A DNA stretch of 62,404 bases, filler included, from Planctomycetota bacterium (GCA_026991575.1; 8 parts of 8 records of this genome joined end to end with filler, not necessarily neighbours in it), one strand, 5' to 3'. Shown: positions 1 to 18,871, counted from the whole stretch's first letter. The notes: generated by a model not told the origin, from the letters alone. Made by a program: numbers and translations.

Positions 1-168
1 CGACCAGAGGCGTTCGGCATTCCCGCACCCCGTCCGTCGGGCGGAAGCCACCTGTGGCTATGGGCAGCCCTGTCCGCCCTCGGACTTCTCACCGTCCTGC
101 TCGCAGCGCGCCTGCTCGCCGGGAGGCGAAGCGCCAATTCGGAGAAACAGCAGCAAGCCGGAGCATGA
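1..168 (+). CDS. C-terminal end of a membrane-anchored exported protein, paralog of 9380-10312 (5' truncated by contig edge; absent from ORF track)
   Basis: Frame 1 reads RPEAFGIPAPRPSGGSHLWLWAALSALGLLTVLLAARLLAGRRSANSEKQQQAGA*, matching the tail of 9380-10312 (SPEAFGIPSPIPEKLSRLWLWVLLALLLLLSALILARLARWR). Confidence 0.8.
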   Translation, partial: RPEAFGIPAPRPSGGSHLWLWAALSALGLLTVLLAARLLAGRRSANSEKQQQAGA

Positions 169-357
169 CCTGGATAAGCTGACGTACGTAGAGACACGTC
201 GCGGAATCCGCTGACAAGGTTCCGCAGCAGAAAACGATCGGCAACGACGGCCGTCAATCCGTTTGTTTTTCGGCATGGCACAAGGTGGCGGATCTGACTC
301 CGCGACCAGGTGGCAGCCGAAAGTAACGCGAGTATACGCTAACTGACGGGGGAAACG

Positions 358-906
358 ATGTGTGAGTCGCGGCGTGCTCTATGTAGCGGGTCGCCGGGGC
401 AAGTCGAAGTATCGTTTCAGCCTCGAACGTGGCAGCGAGGGCGAACTGTGATGTGGGCCGGAGCGCTTCTGATCACGTGGATTCTCGCAATCTCGGCCGC
501 CCGGTGGCACTGCGGTTCGTGGCGTGGGGTGTTGGAGGCGCTGAGAGGGCGGCCTGTCAGCGCCAGTGTTGTCCGCATTGAGCCTCAAGGTGACAAACAC
601 GTGGTCATCACCGTCAGATTGCGGAATCTGCTGCCGCGGACGCTGACCGTTCTGGGCGGGGACCCTGGGTGAGGCGCCCGTCTGGAAGCGGAGTTTCCGC
701 TGCGATTAGCGCCCGGAGATGAAACCAGCGTGCGGTACATTGTCCCTAACAGCTGGCTCGCAGACCGGACCCGCGATTTCGGGCCGGTGCTATACACCGA
801 TACTGGGGGCTCCTGTCTGGTGCGGGTCAACCGCCTGCCCGGGTTTAGTCGTCTGGCGCGGAGGTCACGCTCAGTCACCAGTTCCCGCAAACGATCGTCT
901 GACTGA
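358..906 (+). CDS. Candidate selenoprotein: membrane-anchored DUF1573-like Ig-fold protein with in-frame TGA at 670-672
   Basis: N-terminal TM segment, then RWHCGSW...VRLRNLLPRTLTVLGGDPG-TGA-GARLEAEFPLRLAPGDETSVRYIVPNSWL...FGPVLYTD. Aligns ungapped with the paralog at 10481-11092 on both sides of the TGA. Read-through ends at 906, 13 nt before the lnt start. Confidence 0.75.
685..702 (+). promoter_or_regulatory. Putative bacterial SECIS element
   Basis: Hairpin AGCGGA-GTT-TCCGCT (687-701) downstream of the TGA, with G in the apical loop. An outer GGCGC(673-677)/GCGCC(709-713) pairing is also possible. Confidence 0.6.
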
Positions 907-919
907 GCAGAGGTGGCGG

Positions 920-2563
920 ATGAACCCAGTGGGCACGGCGACGCACAGCCGCAAATCCGACTCCCTCAACGGGCAGTCGGGCCGCGCCGGTGCGGAACCA
1001 GGCAAACTCCTGGCCGGGCCTTGTAACGGCCGGAGGTTGCTGCGCTTGATAGCAGCCCACCTGGGATGGGCCGCGGCGACGCTTTTTGCATGGTGCGGGG
1101 TCTATCGCTGGGCCATTTTGATCGCCTCGGCCATTCTCTGGGTGCCCGTGCTAACCCAGGCCATACGGGGGCAGTGGCGCACGGGGATTGGCTTGGTGAT
1201 TGGATGCACGATCCCGACGGTGGCAGCACCGTACTTGTGGCATTTCGTGGGGTACCCGTACGGATACCTGGCCTACGCTGCAGCGTGCGCTTTAGTTGGA
1301 CTCCAGGTGGCGATAACTGCTGAGCTGTACGCGACGCTGGCCCACCGCCGTGTGCTACTGCTCACGGTGGGCCCCGCATCAGCGACCATGCTCGAGCACG
1401 GTCGTGCGTACTTTTTTGCGTGGCCCACGCTGCTGACTGCGACACCATCCGTTGGCGTCCCAGCCGGCCAGTTAGCGAGCATCGTCGGGCCGCTTGGTCT
1501 CACCTGGATCAGCTATGTGCTGCAAACGATTCTGGCCCTCGCGCTGACAGATCGCCGCAGGCGGTGGACACTGCTGGCGCTGTGGTGTGCGGCGCATGGG
1601 GTGCTAAACCTGGCGGGTGCGGCGCTTCGGCTCGAACCCGGTCAGAAGTCATTTCCCCTGCCCGCGGGCGTCTTACTTGTCCAGCCGGGCATCCGGACGA
1701 GCACCGATTCAGCAAATGCTGCCCCCGGAATCTCGGCCGCAGAGGCGGCGGCACGCATCACCGCTGCGGCACTGGAGCGGTACGAATCGCCGCTGATCGT
1801 GTGGCCAGAGACGACGCTAGGCACCGCGTACGTTCAAAGCCGTCCGGATGGGGGTCTGGAGCTGCTTGACACCGGCGGCCTGTTCTCAGTGGAACCGTAC
1901 GGCAGAATGCTCGCTCGCCGCGAAAACACCTACTTTATCGCCGGATTGTTCTTAAATTACCGCGACGCACGACTCACGAACGGGGCAGTGTCCATCGCGC
2001 CGGATGGCTCGCTGCAGTGGTACGAGAAGCGGACCCTTGTGTGGTTTCTTGAAACCATGCCGGCAGACTTTCTTTGGCTTGTACAGAGACTCAGGATCGA
2101 CACGGGGGGATTCAGGTGGCTGAGTCCGGGTTCTAGGCGGCCACCGTTCCGGTGCAACATTCACGGGCGGACAGTCGTCCTGCAGCCCGCCATCTGTCTG
2201 GAAAAGTACGTCTACTGGGGCTGGCCGGATCCGGATGAATCCGCCATCGACGCGTTTGTACACATCGGGAACGAATCGTACTTCGCCGCACATTCGTATC
2301 TGCTGATCGAACATCGCTGGGCGATACGTATGAGGGCGATCGAGTCAAGACGGTGGCAGTTCTCGGCCCAGACGTACCGCGGCTCTTGTGTCGTCGATCC
2401 GTCCGGTCGCATTCTCGCGCAGCTACCGCCGGGGCCCGGGTGGCTGTTTGTGTCGGAAAGCGGCGTAGAAACGCGGCATTTCTCGCTGGCCGAGCTGGAA
2501 GCGCTTCCCGAACCCGATGTGCACGACGAGGCCGTCAATCGTGAGCGGAGCCAAACACGTTGA
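920..2563 (+). CDS. lnt: Apolipoprotein N-acyltransferase-like protein (TM domain plus nitrilase/CN-hydrolase domain)
   Basis: Multiple TM helices, VLLVQPG, and catalytic triad motifs IVWPET (E), YEKRTLV (K), ICLE (C), plus MRAIESRR. ATG 920 preferred over the ORF-track start 719. Confidence 0.8.
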   Translation: MNPVGTATHSRKSDSLNGQSGRAGAEPGKLLAGPCNGRRLLRLIAAHLGWAAATLFAWCGVYRWAILIASAILWVPVLTQAIRGQWRTGIGLVIGCTIPTVAAPYLWHFVGYPYGYLAYAAACALVGLQVAITAELYATLAHRRVLLLTVGPASATMLEHGRAYFFAWPTLLTATPSVGVPAGQLASIVGPLGLTWISYVLQTILALALTDRRRRWTLLALWCAAHGVLNLAGAALRLEPGQKSFPLPAGVLLVQPGIRTSTDSANAAPGISAAEAAARITAAALERYESPLIVWPETTLGTAYVQSRPDGGLELLDTGGLFSVEPYGRMLARRENTYFIAGLFLNYRDARLTNGAVSIAPDGSLQWYEKRTLVWFLETMPADFLWLVQRLRIDTGGFRWLSPGSRRPPFRCNIHGRTVVLQPAICLEKYVYWGWPDPDESAIDAFVHIGNESYFAAHSYLLIEHRWAIRMRAIESRRWQFSAQTYRGSCVVDPSGRILAQLPPGPGWLFVSESGVETRHFSLAELEALPEPDVHDEAVNRERSQTR

Positions 2564-2645
2564 AACCGGCCCGGGCGCCATCGATAGCCGGCCCGGCCAG
2601 GTCAGGACGCCCACTACGTCGAGGGGTACCGGACGCGTCTGCCCC

Positions 2646-4127
2646 GTGAAGCTGTCGATCGTCATTCCTGCCTACAACGAGGACCGGCGGCTCGTTGCCC
2701 ATCTCACGCGGCTGCTCTCCGAACTCAAGCGTGTGTACGCTTCAGCCTTTGAAGTGATCATTGTGGATGACGGAAGCAGGCAGCCGGTCGAATGTGTTCT
2801 TGGGGAGCTGAGCCGGGAACCGGCCATCCGCGTCATCCGACATGCGGAGAATCGGGGCAAGGGAGCGGCGCTTCGCTCAGGATTGCTCGCTGCGAGGGGA
2901 GCCATTGTGGTCTTCGCCGACGCTGACGGCGCCACACCCCCTCCGGACCTGATCCGGCTCGCCCGTGCCATCGATCGAGGTGTTGATCTTGCCATCGGAT
3001 GCCGTGTTCGAGGTGCAGCGGCAGGCAAGGTGCACCGCCACTGGTACCGCCGCTTTGGAGGACGTCTGTTCGCTACGGTGGCGCGCTGGTTCACCGGCTG
3101 CCCCGTGGTGGATCCTCAGATCGGTTTCAAGGCGCTACACCGCGGGCGCGTCCTACCGGTGCTCCAGCAGGTCCAGGAGCGGGGCTACCTCTTCGATCTC
3201 GAGCTGCTCACCCTCGCGTGGAAGGCCGGCTTGAAGATTCGCGCGATGCCGGTGGCCTGGTCGGAATGCCCGGGCTCACGGCTCCGTTTCCTCCGCGACG
3301 GGCTTCGGATGGTTGAGCGGCTTGTCTGGCTGGGGTACCGCCTACCACGACGAGGACGGAACTACGCCGAATCGCGGAGCCGTCGGTCGGATGACGGCGA
3401 GAGCCCTGGAAGTCCGGCCCCCCAGCGACTTGCGCGATCGAAGCACCTGTTTACGGCACGGCGCTGGTGTTACGACGGTTTCCTCTTGCATCGCTGGTTT
3501 TTCCTGCCCACATACCGCGTCGCCCTCCAGCACGTCCGCTGGCCGGACCACGGATGGGTGCTCGACGTAGGCTGTGGCAATTCGGCCTTCCACCGATTCC
3601 TCACTCTGTCAACGCGCCAGCGCCTGACGTATGTCGGCCTTGATCCCGTGCCGCGCAGTGAGCACGGGCTTCTTGTCAGAGGGGAGGCAGAGCGACTGCC
3701 GTTCCGACACGACACCTTCGACGTCGTCGTGTGCTTCCATGCGGCCCACCACTTCTGGTCCGTGGGCCGCGGGTGCCATGAGATGGCACGAGTCGTTCGC
3801 GAAAACGGCGTCGTGGTCGTAGCCGACGGAGATATCAACTGCTCCTGGGGCCGAATCCTCCACAGCGGCATTGTCCGATCTATAGAGCGAGACGTTCGCT
3901 TCCTAACACATGAGCGATGGTTGCGTCTGTTCGGAAAATGTGGCCTGCAACTGGAGCAGTCGCTCGTACTTGCCGGCGCCGCACCCGTTCGGGTCTGGAT
4001 CACACGGAAGAACCCCCGAAACAGAAGGAATGAACAGGCGAAAAGCACTGATGGCACGCCGCGGACGCAGGAGGGAGAGCGGCGAGAGCCCGTCGCTGCA
4101 CTTGGCCCGAGGGGGGAAGCGAAGTGA
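2646..4127 (+). CDS. GT2 polyprenol/dolichyl-phosphate sugar synthase-like glycosyltransferase fused to a class I SAM methyltransferase
   Basis: LSIVIPAYNE, IIVDDGS, NRGKGAA, FADADG, GFK, FDLELL; C-terminal half has VLDVGCG and AERLPFRHDTFDVV. Start GTG 2646 is inferred (ORF open from 2517). Confidence 0.85.
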   Translation: MKLSIVIPAYNEDRRLVAHLTRLLSELKRVYASAFEVIIVDDGSRQPVECVLGELSREPAIRVIRHAENRGKGAALRSGLLAARGAIVVFADADGATPPPDLIRLARAIDRGVDLAIGCRVRGAAAGKVHRHWYRRFGGRLFATVARWFTGCPVVDPQIGFKALHRGRVLPVLQQVQERGYLFDLELLTLAWKAGLKIRAMPVAWSECPGSRLRFLRDGLRMVERLVWLGYRLPRRGRNYAESRSRRSDDGESPGSPAPQRLARSKHLFTARRWCYDGFLLHRWFFLPTYRVALQHVRWPDHGWVLDVGCGNSAFHRFLTLSTRQRLTYVGLDPVPRSEHGLLVRGEAERLPFRHDTFDVVVCFHAAHHFWSVGRGCHEMARVVRENGVVVVADGDINCSWGRILHSGIVRSIERDVRFLTHERWLRLFGKCGLQLEQSLVLAGAAPVRVWITRKNPRNRRNEQAKSTDGTPRTQEGERREPVAALGPRGEAK

Positions 4128-5839
4128 CGGAGAAAACCGTGTCTCCTTGCACCAGAACGTCGTGGCGACCGCTGGCCCTAGTACTGTTGGCTGCCACGTT
4201 GGCCAGGATCAATCCCTGGACGGATGACATCTGTTTCTGGAACGACGAGGCGTTTAGCTGGGCGGTCGCCTCTGCCCCCTTCGATGAGATGCTGCAGATG
4301 GTGGCAGGCGATACCCACCCTCCAGGGCACTACGTGCTCTTGCACGCGTGGATCAGGATCGCCGGCGACAGTATCTTCGCCATGCGATTCCTGTCGGGGC
4401 TGTTCTCTCTGGCAAGCGTCGTCTGCGTGTATTGGTTCACGCGGGAGGGCTTCAACGGCACTGTTGATCGTCCGACCGACCTCGCCCTCGCAGGGACGCT
4501 GCTGGCGGCAATCAATCCAGCCTGTGCGAGCACGGCCTACATGGCAAGGATGTACGCGATGCTCATGTTCGGAACGATGCTCTGCGCTCTGGGCTGCGTC
4601 ATGGTACTTCGGGGCCCCCGCAACCTGCTCTCCTGGGCCATGTGGGTCGTCGGAGCTCTGGTGGCGGTTTATTCCCACAACTATGGCATGTTCGTGCTCG
4701 CCGGGTCGGGAATCTGGCTGCTGGGCGCAAGTCTCACGGCGTGCCCATCGGAGCGGGCGATCATCTTTCGCAGGACGATCCTTGCCGGATTGCTCGTGGC
4801 GCTTTGCTACGCCCCGTGGGTACCGGTGCTGGTGTCGCAGGCCAGACGTGTAAGCGGGGGTTTCTGGATTCCCCCGATGCGTTTGGATCAGGCGGCTGGG
4901 GTTGTCGCTCAGCTGTTTAGCGAGCCGCTCAGCGCACTCACATGGGCCCCCCTGACAGGCGGGCTGCTGGCGGCAGCTGGCCTGGCCTTTGCACTCATGC
5001 TCTTGATCCCCTGGTTCGGATCAGCAGTGGAGTGGGTGTTTCTTGCGATGGCGGTGGCACACACCGTGGGCATCCTGATCGGAACCCTGGTGCTGCGTCA
5101 GAGCGTCTTTGAGTTTCGCTACCTGGTCCACCTCGTTCCGCTCGCCATGGTAGCCCTGGCAAGCCGGGCATTCGTGCTTCAACGGGGATTGCTCCGCACC
5201 CTTGTGCTGGGGGTGTTCGTCGTTATGGTCGGGTGCTCGGCGATAGCAGTTCTGCTGCAGAGGGTCCAGGTACGAGAAGCAGCAAGGGAAGCCGCAACCG
5301 AGGTTCGCAGACGTGCTATGGCCGGTGACGTCGTGCTGGGAGGCCCGGATTGCTTTTTCCGGATCAAGTATTACCTGACCCACCCTCCTGTTCCGGTTGA
5401 GTTTGCTGTTTACGCTCCGTCGCTCCGAGAGAAGGATCAGCGTCTCGTCGTATACGCGCCCGCTTTACTGCGCGAGCACTACGTGCTGGATCTCGACGCG
5501 GTGCGAGGTGATCGAGTGTGGGTGGTGGCCTCCCATTACTATGCTGGATCCCTGATGAGATTGCCCGGGTACAAGGTGCAGTGGGCCGAGTCATACACAG
5601 ACGTGGGCTGTGCCGACACCAGGCACATGATTGTCGCCCTGTTCACTCGCTCCGCACCGGTCACTGATCGTAGACCGGCAGCGGGACAAGGGGACCTTTT
5701 CGGAACGAGTGGGGAACCGGTAGGCAAGTCCCGGAAATCATCGGAGAAGAACCGGAGTACCCGCTCGGCAGCACGCACTACGTCCGTCAATCTCAGCCCC
5801 GCGTCCCCTGCCGGGCCTGGCAATCCGGACGGTCGCTGA
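4124..5839 (+). CDS. GT-C fold membrane glycosyltransferase (PMT_2/ArnT-like, GT39/GT83 type)
   Basis: WNDEAFS, DTHPPGHYVLLHAW, RFLS, ARMYAM, YSHNYG, YAPWVP and many TM helices. Start overlaps the upstream stop (GTGA). Confidence 0.85.
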   Translation: MTEKTVSPCTRTSWRPLALVLLAATLARINPWTDDICFWNDEAFSWAVASAPFDEMLQMVAGDTHPPGHYVLLHAWIRIAGDSIFAMRFLSGLFSLASVVCVYWFTREGFNGTVDRPTDLALAGTLLAAINPACASTAYMARMYAMLMFGTMLCALGCVMVLRGPRNLLSWAMWVVGALVAVYSHNYGMFVLAGSGIWLLGASLTACPSERAIIFRRTILAGLLVALCYAPWVPVLVSQARRVSGGFWIPPMRLDQAAGVVAQLFSEPLSALTWAPLTGGLLAAAGLAFALMLLIPWFGSAVEWVFLAMAVAHTVGILIGTLVLRQSVFEFRYLVHLVPLAMVALASRAFVLQRGLLRTLVLGVFVVMVGCSAIAVLLQRVQVREAAREAATEVRRRAMAGDVVLGGPDCFFRIKYYLTHPPVPVEFAVYAPSLREKDQRLVVYAPALLREHYVLDLDAVRGDRVWVVASHYYAGSLMRLPGYKVQWAESYTDVGCADTRHMIVALFTRSAPVTDRRPAAGQGDLFGTSGEPVGKSRKSSEKNRSTRSAARTTSVNLSPASPAGPGNPDGR

Positions 5840-6574
5840 CGGGGCGACCCTGTCCATGCTGGCACCGCACACGCAATAGGATCCCGCACGTCGGCAGCGC
5901 GTCGGATGAGTTGGCATTCCAGTTCTCTGTTCCTGGCCACGTGTTCGCATCCCTGACCAGTTTTGTGCAGGGTTCATTGCCTGTCTCTGACCGCCCTCGA
6001 GTTGGCCGGAGGCGGTCGAATCAGGGGAGCTGTCGCGACGCGGTCTGGGCCAGGACGGACCAGTCGTTACGCCAATCATTGCCACCTGTCCGGCGCCCAC
6101 GGCCAGCAGGGCAGCCCGGTGTGACCCGTAGCAAGTAGTTGTGCTGAGCAAACAAGACGGCGCGACAGAATCGGTTGAAGGCAGCGAAAGGACACGTCAG
6201 CCGGAGGAAGAAGCGATCAACGGTCGTGGCGGTCTGCTCCCGCGCAGCGTCCCGACAGGGTCAGAACGTCGTTGATGCTGGCAACCAGGCCGTCGGGAGG
6301 CGTCCACGCGGCGGTTCTGGCGGCAGCGTCCGCGGCTGCCAGGCTTCTGGCGTTGCCTGCCCTGTTAGCATTGCGGCAAGCACGGAAGCGCTCGAACTCC
6401 GGCATGTGAGCCAACGCTTGTACCAGCGGGAACACCCCAGCTGAGGCCAACGCGGAAGCCTGGCCAAGACCTTGGCTGGCAAGCCGAAGCCTCGATGCGT
6501 GAGGCCTTGACAAGGAGACGGAGAATCCGCTGTATCATCGAGTAAGTTGCCTGTGCCAGTTGAGCAGATACGTC

Positions 6575-6809
6575 ATGCGGTGGTTCGTACTCAGCTGCGC
6601 TCCTTTCGGACTTGGTCGGGCTGGGGCTAGTTCTGGCTGCGGCAAGTGTGGTTGCGGCAAGATCTTCAATATCACCCAACGCAGCCGTTGGCGGCTGGAA
6701 GCCCTCAAACCCGAATCCATGTGGCCTGCGCACGAATGACTGCCAGCGCCAGGGCCAGCTATCGTGTCGGTGGGATTCCACCAAGAATGAGCGCCACTGC
6801 AAGAAGTGA
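6575..6809 (+). pseudogene. Small secreted Cys-containing peptide, possibly frameshifted
   Basis: 6612-6809 encodes hydrophobic VGLGLVLAAASVVAA then C-x6-C-x7-C-x10-C, ending 25 nt before the partner gene. An upstream ATG (6575, MRWFVLSCA) is in another frame. Confidence 0.4.
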
Positions 6810-6834
6810 GAAGTGAGGACTGGAGGCAATCTTC

Positions 6835-7878
6835 GTGCACCGCATCTGCTTCCTGTCGCTGTTTGTGACGGCCGTCCTCGTACGGAGCATAGCCGCTGGC
6901 GACGAAGGAGGGGCGTGTGCCGGTATCCTCCCGAACGTCCGGCAGCACGCCAACCGGTACCTAGCGCGCCTCGAGGGGCGGGAATTCCACGTGCGGCAAC
7001 GTTGGGAGACGACCTGGCACGTCCCTCAGCGCCGCGGCACCACCGTGGAAAACGACTCGGTGGTCGAAAACGACTTCTGGGTCTGCTTCCGACTCCGGCA
7101 CCAACAGCTCCGCATTGTCAAAGAGCACCGCGATTCGGGCGAACGCCACGTTTTCCTGCTGAACGCACGGTACGCAGCCAGCCTCCGTTCTATTGCTGGT
7201 CACCAGTTCATAGTGACTCAGGTACGGGCAACGCCCCGTTGGACCGGGCCATATCCCGATTTCTACGCTACGGGACTGCCGCCGGGACGTCCGGAGGACG
7301 CTCCGCTGGCCGTACTGGCTCCGGTTGTCGCTAACGGCCTTCCGGTCGCAGTAGCACTGGAAGACACCGATGCGTTCTCCATCAGTTGCAGAAGGACACC
7401 AGACGGCCTGGTCGCAATCCGGTGCGTGACGAAGGTGGAACGTCCACAGTTCTTCGCCTGGCGTGACTCCTGGCGGCAGATTCTTCTCGATCCAAAGCAA
7501 GCCTACGCAGTTGTCCGCTCCAGGACCGTGTACAGCAACTCGGCAGAGGTCATAACCGAAGTGACGTATTCGGCCGCACGCGCGGCTGAGCCCGTCTCGT
7601 ACCGATGGGAACAAACGGTGACAACGCTCGTTGACGGCAGGAAACGTGTCCTCCAGCACGATGTGATCGACAATATGATCCTTGAGTCCAGGCCATGTTG
7701 CCACCCGGCTGAAGCGTTTTACTTGCCGTACTACGGGATTGACGAGTCGTCGATTGAGCAGACCTCCAGCGGTCGGGTGATCGCGCTGGCGGCAGGATCC
7801 GTCACCGCCCTGCTCATCGCCCTGCTGGCGCTGCTCGCACTGCGATGCGTAACGCACCGCGCGAGCAGTGAGGGTTGA
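6835..7878 (+). CDS. Exported beta-rich protein with C-terminal membrane anchor (LolA-like partner family), function unknown
   Basis: Signal peptide MHRICFLSLFVTAVLVRSIAA, ILLDPKQAYAV motif, and tail PAEAFYLPYYGI + TM + basic residues. Confidence 0.75.
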   Translation: MHRICFLSLFVTAVLVRSIAAGDEGGACAGILPNVRQHANRYLARLEGREFHVRQRWETTWHVPQRRGTTVENDSVVENDFWVCFRLRHQQLRIVKEHRDSGERHVFLLNARYAASLRSIAGHQFIVTQVRATPRWTGPYPDFYATGLPPGRPEDAPLAVLAPVVANGLPVAVALEDTDAFSISCRRTPDGLVAIRCVTKVERPQFFAWRDSWRQILLDPKQAYAVVRSRTVYSNSAEVITEVTYSAARAAEPVSYRWEQTVTTLVDGRKRVLQHDVIDNMILESRPCCHPAEAFYLPYYGIDESSIEQTSSGRVIALAAGSVTALLIALLALLALRCVTHRASSEG

Positions 7879-9117
7879 GCCTCTATTCCGGGCCGAGTAG
7901 CCCTTGCCAGGCGGAGCGCACCGGACGGTCCCAAGTCCTTCCTAATGGGGCTGCTCTGTGTGTCCGCCTTATCACTTCCGCGTCCTGGAACGCGTCCCGT
8001 TGAGCCACAGACGCTAAAGAGATAGTCTTGACTAGGAGGAGGAGGATAATAGAGTAGGCACCGCGAGCGGCCAACGGTTTCCGCACGACGGAGGGGGAAG
8101 CCGCGGACGCGATCCATGGCAACGCTGAACCGGGGGACATGCAACGCGACGGGCGCCAGTAGGCAACGCCAGGCGTGGTCAGGCAATTCCTTCCTGGCTG
8201 GCCTGCCGTGCACCAACGGCCCTACGCTGCCGTTCTCCGGGGAAGCGGTCAAGATCAACCAGCCAGCGAGGAAAGGTTCCGTTCCCGTGTCGCTCCTGGG
8301 CGGGCAACCTGCCCCACTGCCGGCGGTCCTTGCATTTGCCAGGATGGCTGCCGGCATCTGGCCCGGACCTACTCGTTCTGCTCGCGTCCTCCGTGCCTTC
8401 GCGTGGCTGTACCTCATGCTAACGGCGATGGCGCCCGGATCATTTTTCCGTGGCAACAGACCTTTCGGTTGGCCGGGTCGCTCCAGCCTACCTCCGGGAG
8501 TCCGAACGCCGGTTGACCTAGCGCTCGCCATCGGTCCAGGAACAACCAGTACGCCACCTCGGGGCTCCGCGTCCCACCTCGGGTTGGCGACGATAGCTCT
8601 TGCGCCGCTCGTTGCGGACCCAGGTCTCGTACCTGTGGATGCCTATCCCGGTCTCACCGACGCGTTGCTGGCACGGCAATCACGTGTGGCCGTAGAGTTG
8701 CCGCCGGGTACCAGCTTCCGACCGTACCTCTTCCTGGGACGACAACCTCGCACGTGCAACCCGAGTCAGAACAACCCGGTGCTCCTGTTAGGTCCAAGCG
8801 ACTGTCTCCCATGTAGACAAGTCTTAGACCTTCCCCAACCCGCTAGCCACATCGGCTGCGGGACGGTAGCATGCTGTATCGTCGGCAACGGGCAAGTTGC
8901 TAGGAATGCCATCACCGGATCCGTTGGCGCCCTTCTTGCACCTCGGGACAGCGTCATGCTCACCGGTAGCCTACCAGCCATCCTTTTGGCCACTGACGGC
9001 ACGGCCAGCGACTCTGCGATGAGCATTCGAGACTTGCTTGTTACCGGCTCAGCGTGCAGTACGATCCGCGCCATGCGCGCACGGAAGTCAGGTAGCACTT
9101 AGTGGAGGTGATGCGTG

Positions 9118-9375
9118 ATGTTGACCAGACGCCAGGTCCGCTTCGCAATCTTAGGGCTTTCGGTAGGGACGCTGCTCGGTGTGTCATTTGCCGGTTACGA
9201 CGGCGCGAATACAAGGCCAGAGTGTCAGGAAACGCTCAGGGAGTGTGTAGAAGATCCGGCCCTCCATCTTTGCAAGGACAGTGTTCACCTGAAGCGGTGC
9301 GACGCCGATATTCCGGAATGCAAGTGCCGCGATGTTGCCACGCGTCCTCCATCCTGCGTATGTCGGAGGCCATGA
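9118..9375 (+). CDS. Secreted cysteine-rich peptide precursor (8 Cys)
   Basis: RBS GGAGGT at 9104-9109; signal MLTRRQVRFAILGLSVGTLLGVSFA; mature part C-x6-C-x8-C-x8-C-x6-CxC-x9-CxC; ends 4 nt before the next gene. Confidence 0.75.
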   Translation: MLTRRQVRFAILGLSVGTLLGVSFAGYDGANTRPECQETLRECVEDPALHLCKDSVHLKRCDADIPECKCRDVATRPPSCVCRRP

Positions 9376-9379
9376 GACC

Positions 9380-10312
9380 ATGGGAAGCCGCTCCCTCGCC
9401 CTGCTCTTGCTTGTGGCGCTCTGGTCTTCCCGATTAGATGGGCCAGCCTGGTGCGACGAGGTGCCATCGCTGGACGGATATCGGGTTGCCTGGCAGCGTT
9501 TGCTCGATACCTACGGAAACGCCATTTGGACCGTCTCCGTTGAAGGCGCGTCGGAAGAGCAACGCACGATCAGATTGCTCGCGCGTTGGCCTGCGGTCCG
9601 AGTGGAATGGATGCAGCCTGGTGGCACATTCCGTACGGCAGCGGTTTTCTCGCCGCAGGCCAGCTTTAGGGTGCGCAGGATAGGCAAAGACGACAAGTTT
9701 GCTCTGGAATCCTGGTCCCAAAGCGAACAGAAGCTGGCAGAGTTCTGGACCTATCCATCCAATGACGGCTGGCTCCCCTTTGCTGCACTCTCTTGGCTGG
9801 GCGAGCCGCTCGTTGACACCTTCGTCCGTCCGGACAAGGAGATTGTTCGGACTGAGTGGGTCGATGACGCTGGAGGGCGACAGCTGTTCGTAGAGATGCG
9901 GTTTCCCCAGTGGGCGGATAGCACGGCCGCGCGAGCCCGGTTCTGGTTCGCCCCCGAAAAAGCCTGGATTTTGCGTCGCTGGGAACTGTTCGCCGAGTCC
10001 GACCCGGAATCGGGGCGGGTGTGTGAGTTCAGGTATAGGGACGACCCTCGTGGAGTGCCGCTGGTGACATGGGGCCGGTACGGAGTCCGTGGTGGCCGCA
10101 CCCTGTGGGAGGCAAAAGTGCTTGAGGCAGAGTTGTCGCCGCCTCCGGAAACAGTTTTCAGCCCTGAGGCGTTCGGCATACCCAGCCCAATCCCCGAAAA
10201 GCTCTCGCGTCTGTGGCTTTGGGTGCTTCTGGCGTTGTTACTGCTCCTGAGCGCGCTAATCTTGGCACGACTGGCGCGGTGGAGGGCGACGATGACGGAC
10301 GTGGCGGATTGA
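9380..10312 (+). CDS. Exported beta-rich protein with C-terminal membrane anchor (LolA-like partner family)
   Basis: Signal MGSRSLALLLLVALWSS, FWFAPEKAWILRRW motif, and tail PPETVFSPEAFGIP + TM + RLARWR. Confidence 0.8.
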   Translation: MGSRSLALLLLVALWSSRLDGPAWCDEVPSLDGYRVAWQRLLDTYGNAIWTVSVEGASEEQRTIRLLARWPAVRVEWMQPGGTFRTAAVFSPQASFRVRRIGKDDKFALESWSQSEQKLAEFWTYPSNDGWLPFAALSWLGEPLVDTFVRPDKEIVRTEWVDDAGGRQLFVEMRFPQWADSTAARARFWFAPEKAWILRRWELFAESDPESGRVCEFRYRDDPRGVPLVTWGRYGVRGGRTLWEAKVLEAELSPPPETVFSPEAFGIPSPIPEKLSRLWLWVLLALLLLLSALILARLARWRATMTDVAD

Positions 10313-10480
10313 TTGCTCTTATAGAGTCGAGTTCCCAGCCCCACCGCTTCGTACGCTTCGTAGCCAGGTAGACTACATTGGTTGCCACCGCGGATCCTCG
10401 TCATAGGCACGGGGCGGCATCCGCGGCAGAAAACAGGGGATGGCGCGGCGTGGTGAGTCAGCACGTGACGGAGCCTGGAT

Positions 10481-11092
10481 ATGCCACTGAACTCGCCTGA
10501 GGTGTGCGAAGGGAGAACTCGGCAGTCCAATTCAACCTGGTTGGATACGCGTTCCGCCGTTTGGCTGAGCGTCTTGGCAGTGCTGTGGGTTACGGCTATT
10601 GTTGGAGTTCGTTGGCACTGCGGCTCATGGCCTGGCGTTCTCCTGGCACTGCGGGGCGAGGCGTTCTGCGCAGACATCGTGGAGATCGAACCAGCTGGAG
10701 AAGACGTCGTCGCCGTCACCGTTGCACTACGTAATCTTCTGCTCAAGACAACCACCATTTACGGTGCCGGCACTGGTTGAGCATCCCATGTCGAAGCGGA
10801 GTTCCCGCTTCCCGTCCAACCTCGGCAGACAGTCACTTTAAGATATGTGGTCCCGACAAGGTGGCTAACGGCACCGGGGATGAGGTTCGGGTTCGTACTG
10901 TACACGGACGTCGCAGGGAGTACCCGGATCGCGGTGAGTGATCTGATCGGGCCTGAACACGAGCACCAGCTGGACGGCTTACGGCGCGGCGCAGTTCCCT
11001 CGGTGTCGGGTGCGATTAGTGCCGACCCACGGCCCGTTTCCCCGACGGCGACCCCCCTCGACGGCCAATCGAATCCATCCACCGGGCGCTAG
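10481..11092 (+). CDS. Candidate selenoprotein: DUF1573-like paralog with in-frame TGA at 10778-10780
   Basis: Track ORFs 10481-10780 and 10847-11092 are in the same frame, separated only by one TGA: ...TTIYGAGTG-TGA-ASHVEAEFPLPVQPRQTVTLRYVVPTRWL...FGFVLYTD. True start may be GTG 10502 (MCEGR vs paralog MCESR). Confidence 0.75.
10793..10811 (+). promoter_or_regulatory. Putative bacterial SECIS element
   Basis: Perfect 7-bp stem GAAGCGG-AGTTC-CCGCTTC beginning after a 12-nt spacer from the TGA, same register as in the first paralog. Confidence 0.6.
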
Positions 11093-11937
11093 GTCGGCGC
11101 GGGACAGACCGTAACGATGAGGTGACTCGGTCACCCCTCCGATCAGGTCCGCATGGCGTACCACCTGAAACACCCGCGCAAGCGTGGCGTGCAGCCGAAG
11201 TCCATGCGGCAGATGGGTCGACTCGGGGGTAAGCGTCTCGTTCCTACGGCAGTACGTGTCTATTGCGCGAAGACTCCTCGCCCCACAGACGATCCATGGC
11301 GCCGGCACGCCTAGGCTCACCAGCGGATAGCGTAGCTCTGTAGGCTGCCCCGCTCGACCGGCACTGGCTACGGACGTCCACACAGTGCGCACCGCGAGGA
11401 CGCTGACACTCCTGCGCCCTCCTCGGTCCTACACGACTGAAGCCGACCAATTCGCCCTGCCTCTCCTCCAACGCAGCCCCTGACCGGAGTGTCCGTACAC
11501 GAGGTCGAAGAGCGCCAGCCGTGATGATGCCCCCCAACAACAGCTCCGGCGGCATGTTCGCAGCGTCTTTCAGGCTACGCGCCAGCGACTAGCGAAAGCT
11601 CTCATCCCCCTAACCGTTCCCTGCAGGCATGAGGTTCCCCGACGCGCCGGCACCTGCGCGGCTGGCTGGAGCACGGCTTGGCAAGCAAGCAGTGGACTCC
11701 GTGACGGACCAGAACAGTGCCGGGGAGTGCTGAAGCGATGATGCTCCCATGTCGACCACGAAACGACGTACGCTTGCGCCCGCCGGGCCGCCCGGCGCCA
11801 CCCCGGCTGCACACGCGCACCTGTCGCCGAGAGGCAATCCGCCGACGATCGAACCAAAGATGTCACGGCGAAGCAGGCTAGCCGCATCATCCCCCTCCCT
11901 CCAGCAGCGGTAGTCTAAGGCACTGCTCGATCGACCG

Positions 11938-13299
11938 TCACGCGTCCTGTTTCCGGCGCCGCCAACGTAACCATACCAGAAACGCCACCACTGCCAAGAA
12001 CAGCGCAGCAACTGTCAGCGGAACCAAAAAACTTCCACGGCCCCCGCCCATCCGAAGGAACCACGCCATTCGGGCGCGAGCACGGGCTACCGCTTGCTTC
12101 CTGAGCCGCTCAAGCTCGTGAGGATCCCGGCGAAACGGGTATGCCACGTGCGCCCAGCCCGGCCTAAGCGGATGACGCAACCACCGAAAATCGACAACGA
12201 TTGTCCGTTCCTCGGGGACACCATCCAGAAAGAGGTTGCGTAACTCCTCCTTGCTAACCTCGCGCCACTCGGCTCTCCTCACCACGTACACCAGCGTCTC
12301 GGGTACGTTCTCCTGGTAACTGCTCCGATCATGCACTCGCCGCCAGCGGAATGGGAGCCACACGCGCTCGCCTAGTTGGCGATAGTCGGTAAACTCGTCC
12401 ACCGCGAGCAGATGCCGCTTCACTACGCAGTACCACTCTCTGCGCACCGGCAAGTAACCGTACTTCGGGGCCAGCCACAGCGTCGTCGCATCCGCCTCGA
12501 CCACGATAAGGCCGCTATCGGGCTCGACACTGATTGTCTGCGCTTCCCGGACAAGCACTGGAAGCGCGGCATCGAAGAATCTCCGGTGCACAAACCCGCG
12601 GTCTTTTCGCCTCAAGGCTCTAAGTCTGGCCGAGTGGCGCTCCTGCGACAAGAGTGGAACGGACGCATCTCCCATTGAAGGGCGTTTCCCGGGAAACCGA
12701 GGTCCGATCCAGATCGGCTCCCCATTCTCCCAGACAACGCACGCGCCAATGGCACACAGCAGCCCAGACCTGTGGTAGACCGACCTTGCCTTGTGACCCC
12801 ATAGTGGATCGCGAACGTTCGCAATGTTGAGGTTCGCGTACCTGGTTAGGGGCCTTTGCCCCTGCAACCAGGCGAGCACGTCAGCCCCTTCTGGTGGCGC
12901 ATCCTGGGCACAGACATAGTCGGCCGCAACCAACTCCCACACGGCACCGTCCAACACCATTCCTCCGCGCACGTGTGCACGGACCTTCCCTTCACGTACG
13001 CTGGCTAGCGCATACAAGGCCGCCGCGGCACTTTCTCCCGGCGCATTGAAGTAGGCGAGAAGCGACCAAGGCCTTCGGTCGGCAGCCGCCGCGACGTCCC
13101 AACCGTCCGCGATGCATGCCTCGACAATCAGACCCTCGCCCAGACGGCGGAGCGTCCGCTCTACTGCATCCGCCACGCGCTGGCGTAGTACCCCATGGTC
13201 GTCGTCACCATAAACGAAGGCTGCGGCCAACGACACCTGGCACGCTGCCAGTAGAACTCCCAACAATTGGAGGCACCGACACTCCATGAGCCACTGCAT
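11938..13299 (-). CDS. Exported protein with C-terminal membrane anchor (more distant member of the partner family)
   Basis: Signal peptide, LWLAPKYGYLPVRRE, DYRQLGERVWLP, and C-terminal TM followed by WRRRK. RBS GGGGGAG. Confidence 0.75.
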   Translation of the reverse strand: MQWLMECRCLQLLGVLLAACQVSLAAAFVYGDDDHGVLRQRVADAVERTLRRLGEGLIVEACIADGWDVAAAADRRPWSLLAYFNAPGESAAAALYALASVREGKVRAHVRGGMVLDGAVWELVAADYVCAQDAPPEGADVLAWLQGQRPLTRYANLNIANVRDPLWGHKARSVYHRSGLLCAIGACVVWENGEPIWIGPRFPGKRPSMGDASVPLLSQERHSARLRALRRKDRGFVHRRFFDAALPVLVREAQTISVEPDSGLIVVEADATTLWLAPKYGYLPVRREWYCVVKRHLLAVDEFTDYRQLGERVWLPFRWRRVHDRSSYQENVPETLVYVVRRAEWREVSKEELRNLFLDGVPEERTIVVDFRWLRHPLRPGWAHVAYPFRRDPHELERLRKQAVARARARMAWFLRMGGGRGSFLVPLTVAALFLAVVAFLVWLRWRRRKQDA

Positions 13300-14401
13300 T
13301 GATCTCCCCCACCCGGCGAACGGCCCGCTGGAGTACGAGTCCGCGCTAGCGCAGCCCCCAGCGAGCAGGTTCCCTGGAAACAGCTGCCCTCAATAAGGAT
13401 GCACAGTACGTTCCGTGCACGGGCGGCGGTTGCTGTAACCCGAACACGCCAACGCAGGAAAGCGTCGTATGGACGCACGCCACCAGTATACCTAACCCAC
13501 CGTAGCGTTGATCACACTGATCGTACGGGCATCGGCCGCCTGTCCGGTCCGGGGCAGCCTATCCGGCCGGCAACCTGTCCAGAGTAGATGTGCAATTCGA
13601 TTCCTTTGCCGCGTGCGTATGGGGCTCAATAGCGGGAACTAATTCTGGCCACCGGGCTCGTCATAGCCCACTTCTGGGAACACAACTCCTTGAGGTGACG
13701 TCTGACTGTCGGGTGCTCGTCGTCCTGCCGGTATCGCGGGGCGGTCGTCCGCGACGGTCATTCGGATGCCGTTGCGTTGGTCCGGGATCTCCCTTGCGCG
13801 GCGGAGCGTAGCTGTCCACAACGTGCTGGCTGGTCAGCACACGCCGGCAGAAGGGCCTCCTGGTGACGCTGACACGGAAACCCAGTGTTGAGCAAATGGA
13901 ATCGTGGAAGACGAGTCCAGCCGATGGCTGCAGAGGCTTGCGTCAACCGGTACGGAACGCGTACAAAGGAACGTCGCCGTTCGCGCACACGCAGCGCATA
14001 GACACATGCGGCGATGCCGTTCAAGAACGAGAGGCCCTGCTTGTGACGACAGCCAATCTTCCGGTTGATGACCGCATACCAAAACGGCCGCTTGGCCGTA
14101 GTGCTTGCCAGCTACATCTCGCAATCATACAGCAGCTGTCCCGCCGATGGCTGATGTCTGAGCAAATGGGGACACGTCCTTGCTCTCGCGTGCACATCAC
14201 GGTTCGTCTCTCATGCAGCTCGAGCAACACTTGCCTCGCACATCCTCAGAGCACACTTTCGATACGTGCGTGGTCTGATCGGCCTGCCACGAAACACGCG
14301 ATGAGGTAACAGGCTGGAGTTTTTCGCTGAAGACATCTTGCACAAAAAACGCCTCCGTGCCATAGGTTAGGAAAACCAAACCAAGAGCAGGGAGGCGAGC
14401 A

Positions 14402-14964
14402 ATGGCAAGAGAAAACTGGAAATTTTCGGACGCCTGTTGTGAGTAATTGTGGCAGTTCGCGGCGGATCTGGCAAGGCCAATTCTGAGGGAGGCGGCACGT
14501 TGGCTGGTACCGACGTTGATGCTTGGGCTTGGCCTTGCCGGTGCACCTCACCTGACGAGAGCGTTGCGCGCCCGCACTGCGTGGAGCGATGAGGACTTGA
14601 TGCGGTTGGAGAACGGAGCCTCTCGTCTGCTCCGTCAGCAGGCAAGTGATCGGGTGCCGGAGCCGCACATCGACCTAGTGATTGATCGTTACAAAAAGCT
14701 GGTGCTGAAGCAGTTACGTGAGCAGGTGCTGGTGGCGGTGGATGAGACGGATCTGTCGAAGCCGTGGACGAGACGTGTGGAGGGGTTGGGTCAGGTGAAG
14801 GACCACAGCGATCCGGCACGGGTGCTGCGTCCTGGGCACATGGCAGTGCTGGCAACGGCCGTGGAGCATGGTCGTCTGACGCCGCTGGATCTGGCTTTGT
14901 TGGCGGTGTATTCGGGTCGAGGGGACAGCGAGAACCGGGAGATGATCGCGTTTGTGCTTGGTGT
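14402..14964 (+). pseudogene. IS4-superfamily DDE transposase with premature stop, truncated by contig end
   Basis: RBS GGGAGG + ATG 14402 (MARENWKFSDACCE), in-frame TAA 14444-14446, then VAVDETDLSKPW..VEGLGQVKDHS..PGH and SENRE, typical of DDE transposase N-terminal regions. Confidence 0.7.
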
Positions 14965-15064
14965 NNNNNNNNNNNNNNNNNNNNNNNNNNNNNNNNNNNN
15001 NNNNNNNNTTAATTAATTAANNNNNNNNNNNNNNNNNNNNNNNNNNNNNNNNNNNNNNNNNNNN
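14965..15064. other. Artificial contig linker; identical linkers at 19562-19661, 24018-24117, 35216-35315, 39621-39720, 44020-44119, 58179-58278
   Basis: N-run + TTAATTAATTAA (stops in all six frames) + N-run, 100 bp each. Confidence 0.98.
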
Positions 15065-18000: not shown

Positions 18001-18495
18001 GTGCGGTGACCGGCTGCCTCGCCCGCTGACCGGTCGCTCGCCCAGTTCCTCTTCCCAGCCGACGATGTGCACCGGGGGGGAATCTTGAAGCGGGTCAGCT
18101 CGGTGAGAGATGTCGTACGTGCGGCCGTCGAGTCGGATGGCACGCGGCTGCCGCGTCGGGTCGTAATCGAGTAACCGCAGCAATGGCACGACCCAATAGT
18201 CACGCGTTGTTGCCCGGTCCTTCGGGGAAAGCGTGCGGAATTCGGCGTAGCGTTCGCGCGCGAGCCGCCACAGGTGGGCTGCGTAATCAACAATCGATGT
18301 CCTGTCGGGGATGTCTTCCAGGCGCTGCAGCATCCGCTGCGTACGCCGGTCCCTGGGCTGGCGGCGCTCGAGGCCGCGGATCGGCTCTCTGAGGTCTTTG
18401 ACCGAGCGTTGCCCCTCCTGCTGATCGATCCGTTCCACGAGGTCGTACGACAGCAGACCGCCCTCGATGACCAGCGGCTCCGCAACAATGCGCAT
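15065..18495 (-). CDS. Large N6-adenine DNA methyltransferase of Eco57I/type IIG (DISARM DrmMI-like) type, 3' truncated
   Basis: RKSTGSYYTP, VVDPACGSGHFL (SAM binding), IYGVDRNPLAV, IKCGDSL, FHWPLEFP and GNPPW (catalytic). ATG 18495 has a GAGGG RBS. Confidence 0.9.
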
Positions 18496-18871
18496 GGATG
18501 CCCTCGGGTGAACAATCGCTGTCTGCCTGGAACAATCGACGAAGCGCGGGGATAGTGTACCAATCGGGTCTCTACCCAGCAATCCGTCGGTGGAACGTCG
18601 CTGGAGTTCGTTTCAGCTCCTACCGGGCGTTGGGGCAGCCGGGGCGGTGCTTTGACGCGGCGTCTTGGCGAGGGTTGGGGGCTCTCGCGGCATGGTGTTG
18701 GTGCCACGGGTACGTCTTATCCATTGGCCTTCTCGGCACACGCTGTGGGCCCAGCTCCTTCCGGGCGGTGCCTGCGCGCGACGGGTGCTCACCGGAGGTC
18801 AGCCGGCACGGCCGGCCAGGCGAGCGGAATTGGGGCTTTGTCGGGACGATCGGATGGACGCCACCAGCGAA

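What the first reader, a model, noticed from the sequence alone, without database searches (positions are those of the whole stretch)
1..13530. Repeated cassette: Cys-rich secreted peptide + anchored partner + Sec protein, around an acylation/glycosylation operon
Seen: four related units on one contig. A: partner tail 1-168, then Sec gene 358-906. B: peptide 6575-6809, then partner 6835-7878. C: peptide 9118-9375, partner 9380-10312, Sec gene 10481-11092. D (inverted): probable peptide remnant near 13310-13530, then partner 11938-13299. Unit A runs directly into lnt-like, GT2-methyltransferase and GT-C genes. Inference: a diversifying system that exports disulfide-rich peptides, folds them with a selenol redox catalyst, handles them with a cognate partner (chaperone, receptor or immunity) and possibly acylates or glycosylates them. 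I know of no described pathway with this composition.
Basis: partly seen in the sequence, partly recalled or inferred. Interest (0 to 1): 0.85.

Follow-up and report, generated by a model that had tools for sequence, protein, structure and literature searches.

The report
Repeat-switched cysteine-rich peptide cassettes
This planctomycete carries many gene cassettes that pair a small secreted cysteine-rich peptide with a membrane-anchored partner protein and with enzymes for disulfide bonding, sugar and lipid attachment, and many sit behind promoters with slippery DNA repeats, which suggests an undescribed system for randomly switching the cell's outer-envelope components.

Summary
Mostly real, and larger than reported. 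The window is the right end of a ~36 kb array (contig C63 overlaps it by 112 nt) of secreted Cys-rich peptides, each followed by a LolA-fold, C-terminally anchored partner, with Lnt-like, GT2-methyltransferase and GT-C genes present twice. The UGA genes are genuine selenoprotein candidates: UGA replaces a conserved Cys, with SECIS-like hairpins, purifying selection downstream and full Sec machinery. But DUF1573 is an already listed selenoprotein family. First, a MauE/thioredoxin disulfide-forming gene; across Planctomycetia, DUF1573 (15 of 40 MauE-fused) is directly followed by a Cys-rich secreted peptide in 32 of 40 loci (control 1.7%). Second, all 17 simple repeats anchored at a -35 box in this genome head such cassettes, 15 of 17 a whole number of repeats from a 17-bp spacer: a phase-variation signature (8 of 40 elsewhere, against 0 of 250 control genes). 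Unit D's peptide is unsupported (IS debris); peptide B is frameshifted. Best reading: a phase-variable repertoire of disulfide-folded, probably glycosylated or acylated envelope modules. Binding, modification and switching are inferred, not shown. No earlier scan note or paper describing it was found.

The parts
1..168 (+). C-terminal end (linker + transmembrane anchor) of a C-class partner whose gene begins on contig C63
   Evidence: 112-nt exact overlap with C63
358..906 (+). TM + DUF1573-like gene A with in-frame UGA (670-672) at the first Cys of the family CxC motif; start may be 451
685..701 (+). SECIS-like hairpin, loop 19 nt after the UGA; same stem-loop sequence in gene C, G001 and L152
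920..2563 (+). Lnt-like membrane acyltransferase paralogue (nitrilase fold; Glu, Lys and Cys of the triad invariant in 3 of 3 aligned); below the TIGR00546 cut-off; housekeeping lnt is on C50
   Evidence: triad positions recalled from E. coli Lnt
2517..4127 (+). GT2 (polyprenyl-phosphate glycosyltransferase-like) fused to a class I methyltransferase; probable start 2646
4124..5839 (+). GT-C membrane glycosyltransferase (PMT_2-like, below cut-off)
6507..6538 (+). promoter-like site before peptide B with a degenerate AGG tract, spacer 20
6575..6809 (+). peptide B, frameshifted in its signal region; Cys-rich part open from 6612; 4 Cys against 6 in paralogues
6835..7878 (+). B-class partner: signal, LolA-like domain (model pLDDT 61), C-terminal TM anchor; 4 paralogues on C63
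8028..8050 (+). -35 box, (AGG)4 tract, -10-like box: repeat-spacer promoter heading unit C (an alternative -10 at spacer 16 also exists)
8116..9102 (+). degenerate MauE-thioredoxin-like gene: MauE CGC loop lost, CxxC kept
9118..9375 (+). peptide C: signal peptide + 8-Cys mature region; 7 Cys columns invariant in 8 homologues from 3 organisms
9380..10312 (+). C-class partner: signal, LolA/LolB-superfamily domain (model pLDDT 85), C-terminal TM anchor
10481..11092 (+). TM + DUF1573-like gene C with in-frame UGA (10778-10780) and SECIS-like hairpin 10793-10811
11125..11523 (.). multi-copy, probably IS-derived remnant (not part of the cassette); family label recalled, not confirmed by Pfam
11938..13299 (-). 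orphan D-class partner (44-49% identical to three C74 partners, two of which follow their own peptide and AGG promoter)
14313..14964 (.). multi-copy DDE transposase fragment at the contig end

Best explanation
The locus is part of a multi-copy, phase-variable repertoire of envelope modules. Each cassette has a promoter whose -35/-10 spacer contains a simple repeat; replication slippage turns it on (about 17 bp) or off (inferred from anatomy). An ON cassette exports one Cys-rich peptide and one cognate LolA-fold protein anchored in the membrane by a C-terminal helix (genes, pairing and fold shown; export inferred from signal sequences). A dedicated oxidative-folding relay, MauE to thioredoxin-like CxxC and/or membrane-anchored DUF1573 CxC, forms and shuffles the peptide's disulfides. 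In this lineage five of six single-domain DUF1573 copies use one selenocysteine instead of CxC (recoding strongly supported; relay inferred). Linked GT2/GT-C enzymes, plus a methyltransferase and Lnt-like acyltransferase in this lineage, build a polyprenyl-linked sugar and attach sugar and acyl groups outside the cytoplasm, probably to the peptide or partner; the LolA-like cavity would hold the lipid-modified product (inferred, substrate unknown). The outcome would be stochastic cell-to-cell variation of surface or periplasmic components, as in contingency loci. Rough odds per step: Sec recoding 0.9; conserved module 0.95; repeat-driven switching 0.8; MauE/DUF1573 folding the peptide 0.7; peptide binds partner 0.45; peptide or partner is the glycosylated/acylated target 0.4.
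For: Linkage: 32 of 40 DUF1573 loci from 32 other Planctomycetia genomes are directly followed by a signal-bearing peptide with 6 or more Cys, against 268 of 16000 random positions; 15 of 40 are MauE-fused; 4 of 4 long homologues tested are MauE+DUF1573 fusions. The same operon order occurs in G001, another genus, and part of it in L152. Sec: UGA at the same column in 7 genes of 3 organisms; Cys there in 142 of 149 relatives; pN below pS after the UGA in 9 of 9 pairs, with 60-103 open codons; selA, selB, selD and tRNA-Sec present. Switching: 17 TTGAC-anchored repeat tracts against 2.7 expected; all 17 head cassettes of this kind; 15 of 17 are whole repeats from spacer 17, including 8 of 8 dinucleotide tracts; paralogous promoters with 12 and 4 repeats have flanks 59/60 and 86/90 identical; 8 of 40 against 0 of 250 in other genomes; also in G001 and L152. 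Fold: LolA/LolB superfamily for partners C and B.
Against: No expression data and no direct view of repeat-length variation within a population (one search had contigs only). Only 1 of 17 promoters is at spacer 17, and the window's own has an alternative -10 at spacer 16. The seven AGG promoters are homologous, so not independent. The -10 boxes were chosen by my own score. The window's copies are partly decayed (peptide B frameshift, MauE without its CGC loop, orphan D). Mature peptides do not begin with Cys, so they are not canonical Lnt substrates. The Lnt/GT2-MT/GT-C operon was found only in this lineage (1 locus; 4 proteins); most other Planctomycetia cassettes have DUF1559 pilin-like genes instead (32 of 43 loci). 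32 of 40 foreign loci had no anchored repeat in the 600 nt examined. The 40 loci were picked by me from top hits on long contigs, and kin are not independent.
Confidence: 0.55

Rival explanations
1. The peptides are structural accessory subunits (tip or minor components) of pilus-like fibres built from DUF1559 prepilin-like proteins, and the LolA-fold partner or DUF1559 protein, not the peptide, is the variable glycosylated surface antigen.
For: DUF1559 in 32 of 43 loci, usually right after the peptide, and in four G000 cassettes. Within arrays peptides are 72-93% identical while the N-terminal two thirds of partners are 49-71% identical.
Against: No DUF1559 gene seen in the C63+C129 array, in G001's L012 or on C74. 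That DUF1559 proteins are pilins is recalled from their N-terminal motif; PMC10632474 calls them of unknown function.
Confidence: 0.2
2. Bacteriocin/immunity arrays: disulfide-rich antimicrobial peptides, possibly glyco- or lipo-modified, each followed by its cognate membrane-anchored immunity protein.
For: Peptide-then-partner order and class-matched pairing; mosaic partners with conserved C-termini; MauE/MauD clusters with Cys-rich precursors were proposed as RiPP candidates (PMC7794033); C39-like genes on C74.
Against: Near-identical peptides pair with much more divergent partners, which lock-and-key immunity does not predict. No transporter gene in the array. Co-switching toxin and immunity off (16 of 17 promoters away from 17 bp) would leave siblings unprotected. 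No dN above dS seen.
Confidence: 0.12
3. Peptide signal and receptor pairs, with the partner acting like RseB/MucB as a periplasmic sensor.
For: RseB and MucB are among the fold matches; one receptor-like protein per peptide.
Against: RseB/MucB rank far below LolA-type matches; the cytoplasmic tail is only about 10-25 residues; no sigma, anti-sigma or kinase gene in the array.
Confidence: 0.07
4. Metal-binding (metallothionein-like) peptides with DUF1573 CxC/U as metallochaperone, an adaptation to a vent habitat.
For: High Cys density and CxC motifs; the probable source run is a hydrothermal vent metagenome.
Against: Linked to a disulfide oxidase; Cys lost as a pair in peptide B; present class-wide; repeat-switched promoters and glycosyltransferases are unexplained.
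Confidence: 0.06

Closest known systems
MauE-centred disulfide-formation pathway (bioRxiv 10.64898/2026.03.05.709764) and MauE/MauD of methylamine dehydrogenase maturation
   Same: MauE with CGC loop, often fused to a thioredoxin-like CxxC domain; placed beside a small disulfide-rich exported polypeptide
   Different: Here MauE is often fused or linked to DUF1573 and dedicated to hypervariable peptides; the paper has no hit for 'Planctomycet', 'DUF' or 'cysteine-rich'. The window's copy has lost the CGC loop.
MauE(+MauD) candidate RiPP clusters of Streptomyces (decRiPPter, PMC7794033)
   Same: MauE beside a precursor with many Cys; disulfide maturation proposed
   Different: Other phylum; the passages read mention no LolA-fold partners, DUF1573, Sec, GT-C or repeat-switched promoters
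DUF1573 selenoprotein family (PF07610, UGC motif; PMC9312934, PMC13188914)
   Same: Sec replaces the first Cys of the CxC motif
   Different: Second Cys lost in all 7 UGA copies seen; N-terminal TM single-domain form; embedded in peptide cassettes; five copies in one genome
SSR contingency promoters (Neisseria porA/opc/fetA; Haemophilus fimbriae) and Mycoplasma gallisepticum vlhA (GAA)n family
   Same: Repeat between -35 and -10 as in porA/opc/fetA (PMC2791445); a multigene family each with its own repeat promoter as in vlhA (PMC6258824)
   Different: Free-living planctomycete; six different repeat units in one genome converge on one cassette family; whole peptide+partner+enzyme operons are switched; vlhA repeats lie upstream of the core promoter
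Lnt + Ppm1 + Pmt lipoprotein acylation/O-mannosylation of Actinobacteria and Lol trafficking (recalled)
   Same: Lnt-like, Dpm1-like GT2, GT-C and LolA-fold proteins together
   Different: Extra paralogues beside a housekeeping lnt; peptides lack an N-terminal Cys; GT2 fused to a methyltransferase; LolA-fold proteins C-terminally anchored and hypervariable

Membership tests
Bacterial selenoprotein gene | In-frame UGA aligned to a conserved Cys of homologues | tested here: met
   Cys in 142 of 149 relatives; the other 7 end at that point
Bacterial selenoprotein gene | SECIS-like hairpin just 3' of the UGA | tested here: met
   hairpin with G-U in the loop 19-27 nt downstream; that hairpin is absent in the Cys paralogue; consensus criteria recalled; no shuffle control run
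Bacterial selenoprotein gene | selA, selB, selC, selD in the genome | tested here: met
Bacterial selenoprotein gene | Coding conservation after the UGA | tested here: met
   pN below pS in 9 of 9 pairs (dS often saturated; near parity for A vs G001 once the SECIS codons are removed)
Bacterial selenoprotein gene | Selenium incorporated in the protein | not testable with these tools
   needs 75Se labelling or MS
DUF1573 (PF07610) | Pfam match above gathering score | tested here: inconclusive
   window proteins: no hit; Cys paralogue type E 0.002, below cut-off; 21 of 21 single-domain relatives tested hit, 11 above cut-off
DUF1573 selenoprotein (UGC motif) | U-x-C motif | tested here: not met
   second Cys absent in all 7 UGA copies
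MauE disulfide oxidase | CxC loop between helices 3 and 4 | tested here: not met
   window 8116-9102 lacks it; met in the C63, C28 and G001 copies; Pfam MauE hits G001 and (below cut-off) C28, not the C63 or window copies
Lnt apolipoprotein N-acyltransferase (TIGR00546) | Score above equivalog cut-off 132.9 | tested here: not met
   94.6 bits; true lnt on C50 at 256 bits
Lnt apolipoprotein N-acyltransferase (TIGR00546) | Glu-Lys-Cys triad | tested here: met
   E297, K370, C426 invariant in 3 of 3; triad identity recalled
LolA/LolB superfamily | Half-barrel fold | tested here: met
   (E 7e-7 and 1e-5; TM about 0.3-0.46 by query); partner D not modelled
LolA/LolB superfamily | Binds acyl chains or lipoproteins | not testable with these tools
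   none
SSR phase-variable promoter | Repeat tract between -35 and -10 able to give a 17-bp spacer | tested here: met
   15 of 17
SSR phase-variable promoter | Tract length varies, reversibly, and changes expression | tested here: inconclusive
   varies between near-identical paralogues; no reads or RNA available
RiPP/bacteriocin with double-glycine leader and C39-ABC exporter | GG leader and peptidase-containing ABC transporter | tested here: not met
   window and C63 peptides carry ordinary signal peptides and no transporter gene was seen; a C39 domain occurs on C74

The most novel reading that the evidence does not exclude
Planctomycetia carry a class-wide, undescribed 'envelope identity' system: dozens of independently switchable cassettes each make a disulfide-knotted peptide that is folded by a private MauE-DUF1573 (Cys or Sec) relay, glyco- and/or lipo-modified outside the cytoplasm, and displayed on a cognate LolA-fold or pilin-like partner. 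Single cells would express different combinations, as antigenically variable pathogens do, to vary phage, predator or kin recognition.
Probability: 0.35. Interest if true: 0.9.

Novelty: new variant of a known kind. Interest (0 to 1): 0.78.

Why it matters
It would give a function to DUF1573 (a redox partner of MauE, supported by fusions and Cys/Sec exchange), reveal a large reservoir of bacterial disulfide-rich peptides with a dedicated folding machine, and place part of the unexplained DUF1559 expansion of planctomycetes in a defined operon. It would also show pathogen-style promoter phase variation, arising with several repeat units, focused on one gene family in a free-living phylum. The repeat promoters make it directly testable: they predict which cassette is on, and cultured Planctomycetia carry the cassettes.

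Tried and rejected
Word-index homologue search with the read-through protein found nothing (474 candidates); the partner-C profile found only 3 proteins. The search for related loci with the wide DUF1573 alignment could not run. The five-sequence profile over 401 phylum genomes was insensitive (9 matched). Complex prediction of peptide C with partner C gave no verdict (scores 0.00 and 0.01) and is not used as evidence either way. No RNA holder was listed for 6400-11200; run X2 covered too little to show strain differences at the repeat or UGA. The metagenome promoter pattern was too loose: scan stopped at 120 rows, and 1 locus (L152) was homologous. The AGG-promoter pattern was not found in G001-G004 or G016 (0 of 5). 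The Atlas gave no usable hit for peptide C. Rejected: UGA as a shared nonsense mutation (conserved frame, hairpin and selection after it); TGA stops flagged in other genomes as Sec (68 of 78 domain hits have CxC, 10 unresolved, none with a stop in the motif); the D peptide remnant; positive selection on partners (dN below dS). Pfam did not confirm the 11125-11523 element (3 frames of a C61 copy tested). Gene labels for cassettes on C6, C33, C39, C64, C104, C118, C122, C139 and C151 rest, my own DUF1573 profile and reading of translations; they were not scanned gene by gene against Pfam, which leaves those labels provisional. Literature searches that found no description of the system.
Full report
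Setting. The window is a chain of N-joined contigs; the finding lies on G000:C129 (1-14964). The genome is 97.8% complete. Its only same-family relative found, G001, is a Planctomycetota MAG; I call the class Planctomycetia from recall and gene content, as no call names it. Contig C63 overlaps window 1-112 exactly, and proteins of both contigs are listed on a 35,776-nt contig elsewhere, so the locus is probably about 36 kb: four B-type peptide+partner pairs, MauE-thioredoxin, a Cys-type DUF1573 gene, lnt-like, GT2-methyltransferase, GT-C, a MauE remnant, five C-type partners (three with intact peptides), then the window: UGA gene A, a second lnt/GT2-MT/GT-C set (48-56% identical to the first), unit B, a degenerate MauE-thioredoxin, unit C with UGA gene C, and inverted partner D.

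Checking the observation. Peptide B as given is not one frame and has lost two of six Cys. Logan contigs of the probable source run agree letter for letter over 102-7815 and 7786-14300 (not an independent sample). The D peptide remnant is not supported: no match to the real D-type peptides on C74, and 13428-13525 resembles the 5' end of an IS4/5-family element. Partner classes B, C and D are not detectably homologous in sequence, but models of C (pLDDT 85) and B (pLDDT 61) both match the LolA/LolB superfamily best. Look-alikes of partner C are unnamed Planctomycetota clusters (30 hits, best 0.97).

The selenoprotein. The UGA falls on the first Cys of the CxC motif of a Cys paralogue on C63. 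A profile found 1455 representatives; of the best 150, 149 aligned: 142 have Cys there (139 CxC) and 7 end at that point (several of the 7 are this genome, G001, L152 or close strains, and I did not see DNA for the rest). G000 has five UGA copies and one Cys copy of this single-domain form; G001 and metagenome locus L152 have one each. All carry a hairpin 19-27 nt downstream with G-U in the loop, of the same sequence in A, C, G001 and L152 (SECIS criteria recalled, no shuffle control). After the UGA, 60-103 codons stay open and pN is below pS in 9 of 9 pairs. selA, selB, selD (itself with UGA) and tRNA-Sec are present. Relatives match DUF1573 (21 of 21 single-domain tested, 11 above cut-off), though the window proteins do not. 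DUF1573 is already listed as a selenoprotein family with a UGC motif (table passages of PMC9312934 and PMC13188914). So Sec is well supported but not new; the loss of the second Cys and the context are. No Sec form was seen outside this lineage (68 of 78 hits CxC, 10 unresolved).

The conserved core. A 128-sequence profile matched 250 of 251 class genomes, which includes ordinary multi-domain DUF1573. I fetched 40 of the strongest hits, chosen for long contigs, from 32 genomes. In 32 of 40 the next gene is a signal-bearing peptide with 6 or more Cys in its last 60 residues, against 268 of 16000 random positions; 15 of 40 carry the MauE motif in the same frame, and 4 of 4 long homologues tested are Pfam MauE+DUF1573 fusions. 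DUF1559 genes occur in 32 of 43 loci, GT-C and GT2 in a minority. MauE replaces DsbB in E. coli through a CXC loop (bioRxiv 10.64898/2026.03.05.709764; abstract, passages and section 6 read; supplements not seen). MauE clusters with Cys-rich precursors were noted as RiPP candidates in Streptomyces (PMC7794033, passages; supplements not read). The window's 8116-9102 is a MauE-thioredoxin copy without the CGC loop. The Lnt-like clade is narrow: one other locus in the genome collection and 4 proteins in the protein search. G001 keeps the order MauE-Trx, three peptide+partner pairs, UGA gene, lnt, GT2-MT, GT-C. A housekeeping lnt exists separately.

The switch. All 8 (AGG)4+ tracts listed lie between a -35 box and a -10-like box (one search shows one further GAG-phase tract, on C58, that does not). 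Of 212 simple-repeat tracts, 17 begin at a TTGAC box, against 2.7 expected. All 17 head cassettes with some of peptide, anchored partner, DUF1573-like, MauE, DUF1559, C39 or GT-C genes (labels on other contigs partly by eye). With the best -10 chosen by score, spacers run from 7 to 35 and 15 of 17 are a whole number of repeats from 17, including 8 of 8 dinucleotide tracts; only one is at 17; the window's own promoter is one of the two exceptions because of an alternative -10 at spacer 16. Duplicated promoters differ in repeat number (12 vs 4; 10 vs 5) while flanks stay nearly identical. G001 has two (GA)n promoters before DUF1573-like or MauE genes, and L152 an (AGG)5 promoter before MauE. In the 40 foreign loci an anchored tract, always a homopolymer, lies upstream in 8, against 0 of 250 other genes. 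This is the architecture of porA/opc/fetA phase variation (PMC2791445, passages) and recalls the vlhA family (PMC6258824, abstract). Switching itself was not observed: no RNA holder and no raw reads were available.

Evolution of the arrays. Peptides are 72-93% identical within arrays and partner C-terminal thirds 66-95%, while partner N-terminal two thirds are 49-71% with high dS and dN below dS: mosaic cassettes with homogenised flanks and old, retained variable domains. The partner is at least as much the variable element as the peptide, which weakens a simple toxin/immunity reading.

Mechanism and verdict. Shown: genes, linkage, folds, UGA/Cys exchange, repeat promoters. Inferred: MauE-DUF1573 folding of the peptide, sugar and acyl transfer to peptide or partner, peptide-partner binding, stochastic switching, and a role in envelope variation (0.55 overall). 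Rivals are a pilin-accessory role, bacteriocin/immunity, signalling and metal binding. Each part has a known analogue, but searches for DUF1573, MauE with planctomycetes, DUF1559, phase variation in planctomycetes, secreted Cys-rich clusters and NVEALA (listings, plus passages of PMC10632474 and PMC2754498) found no description of the combination; the library lacks most subscription papers. Earlier scan notes had nothing like it. I file it as a new variant of a known kind (MauE-linked disulfide-peptide clusters under contingency promoters), interest 0.78.

Noticed in passing
G000:C54:1952-1964: An (AG)6 tract runs into the contig end just upstream of a DUF1573 gene; the assembly may have broken at a length-variable promoter repeat.
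   Followed up: no
G000:C33 (L224), C122:4100-5150, C139:4650-5800: Three repeat promoters are followed by divergent DUF1573-like genes with an adjacent-Cys motif in place of CxC, then DUF1559 genes.
   Followed up: partly
L010 (G000:C74:5000-20361): D-type cassette: WD40-like beta-propeller gene, three D partners, two peptides with a GA-ended leader-like stretch, two C39-like fusion proteins and a GT-C.
   Followed up: partly
G000:C118:58570-58800 (minus strand): One Sec-containing cassette has a non-repeat promoter-like site with a 17-bp spacer, possibly constitutive.
   Followed up: no
G000:C184:25019-29791: selD (with in-frame UGA and hairpin), selB, selA and tRNA-Sec form one cluster.
   Followed up: yes
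P0028: A homologue ends just after the first Cys of the motif, so the second position might be recoded; DNA not seen.
   Followed up: no
G000:C63 reverse strand 15451-15900: A frameshifted C-type peptide remnant lies between two partners, so decay of individual peptides recurs in the array.
   Followed up: no
window 15013-18582 (minus, next contig): 1189-aa ORF with NPPW/FHW motifs, recalled as a type IIG restriction-modification (Eco57I-like) protein; separate contig, unrelated to the finding.
   Followed up: no
L063, L069, L070, L071, L077, L096: Several foreign cassettes hold a second, degenerate DUF1573-like gene without a recognisable CxC.
   Followed up: no
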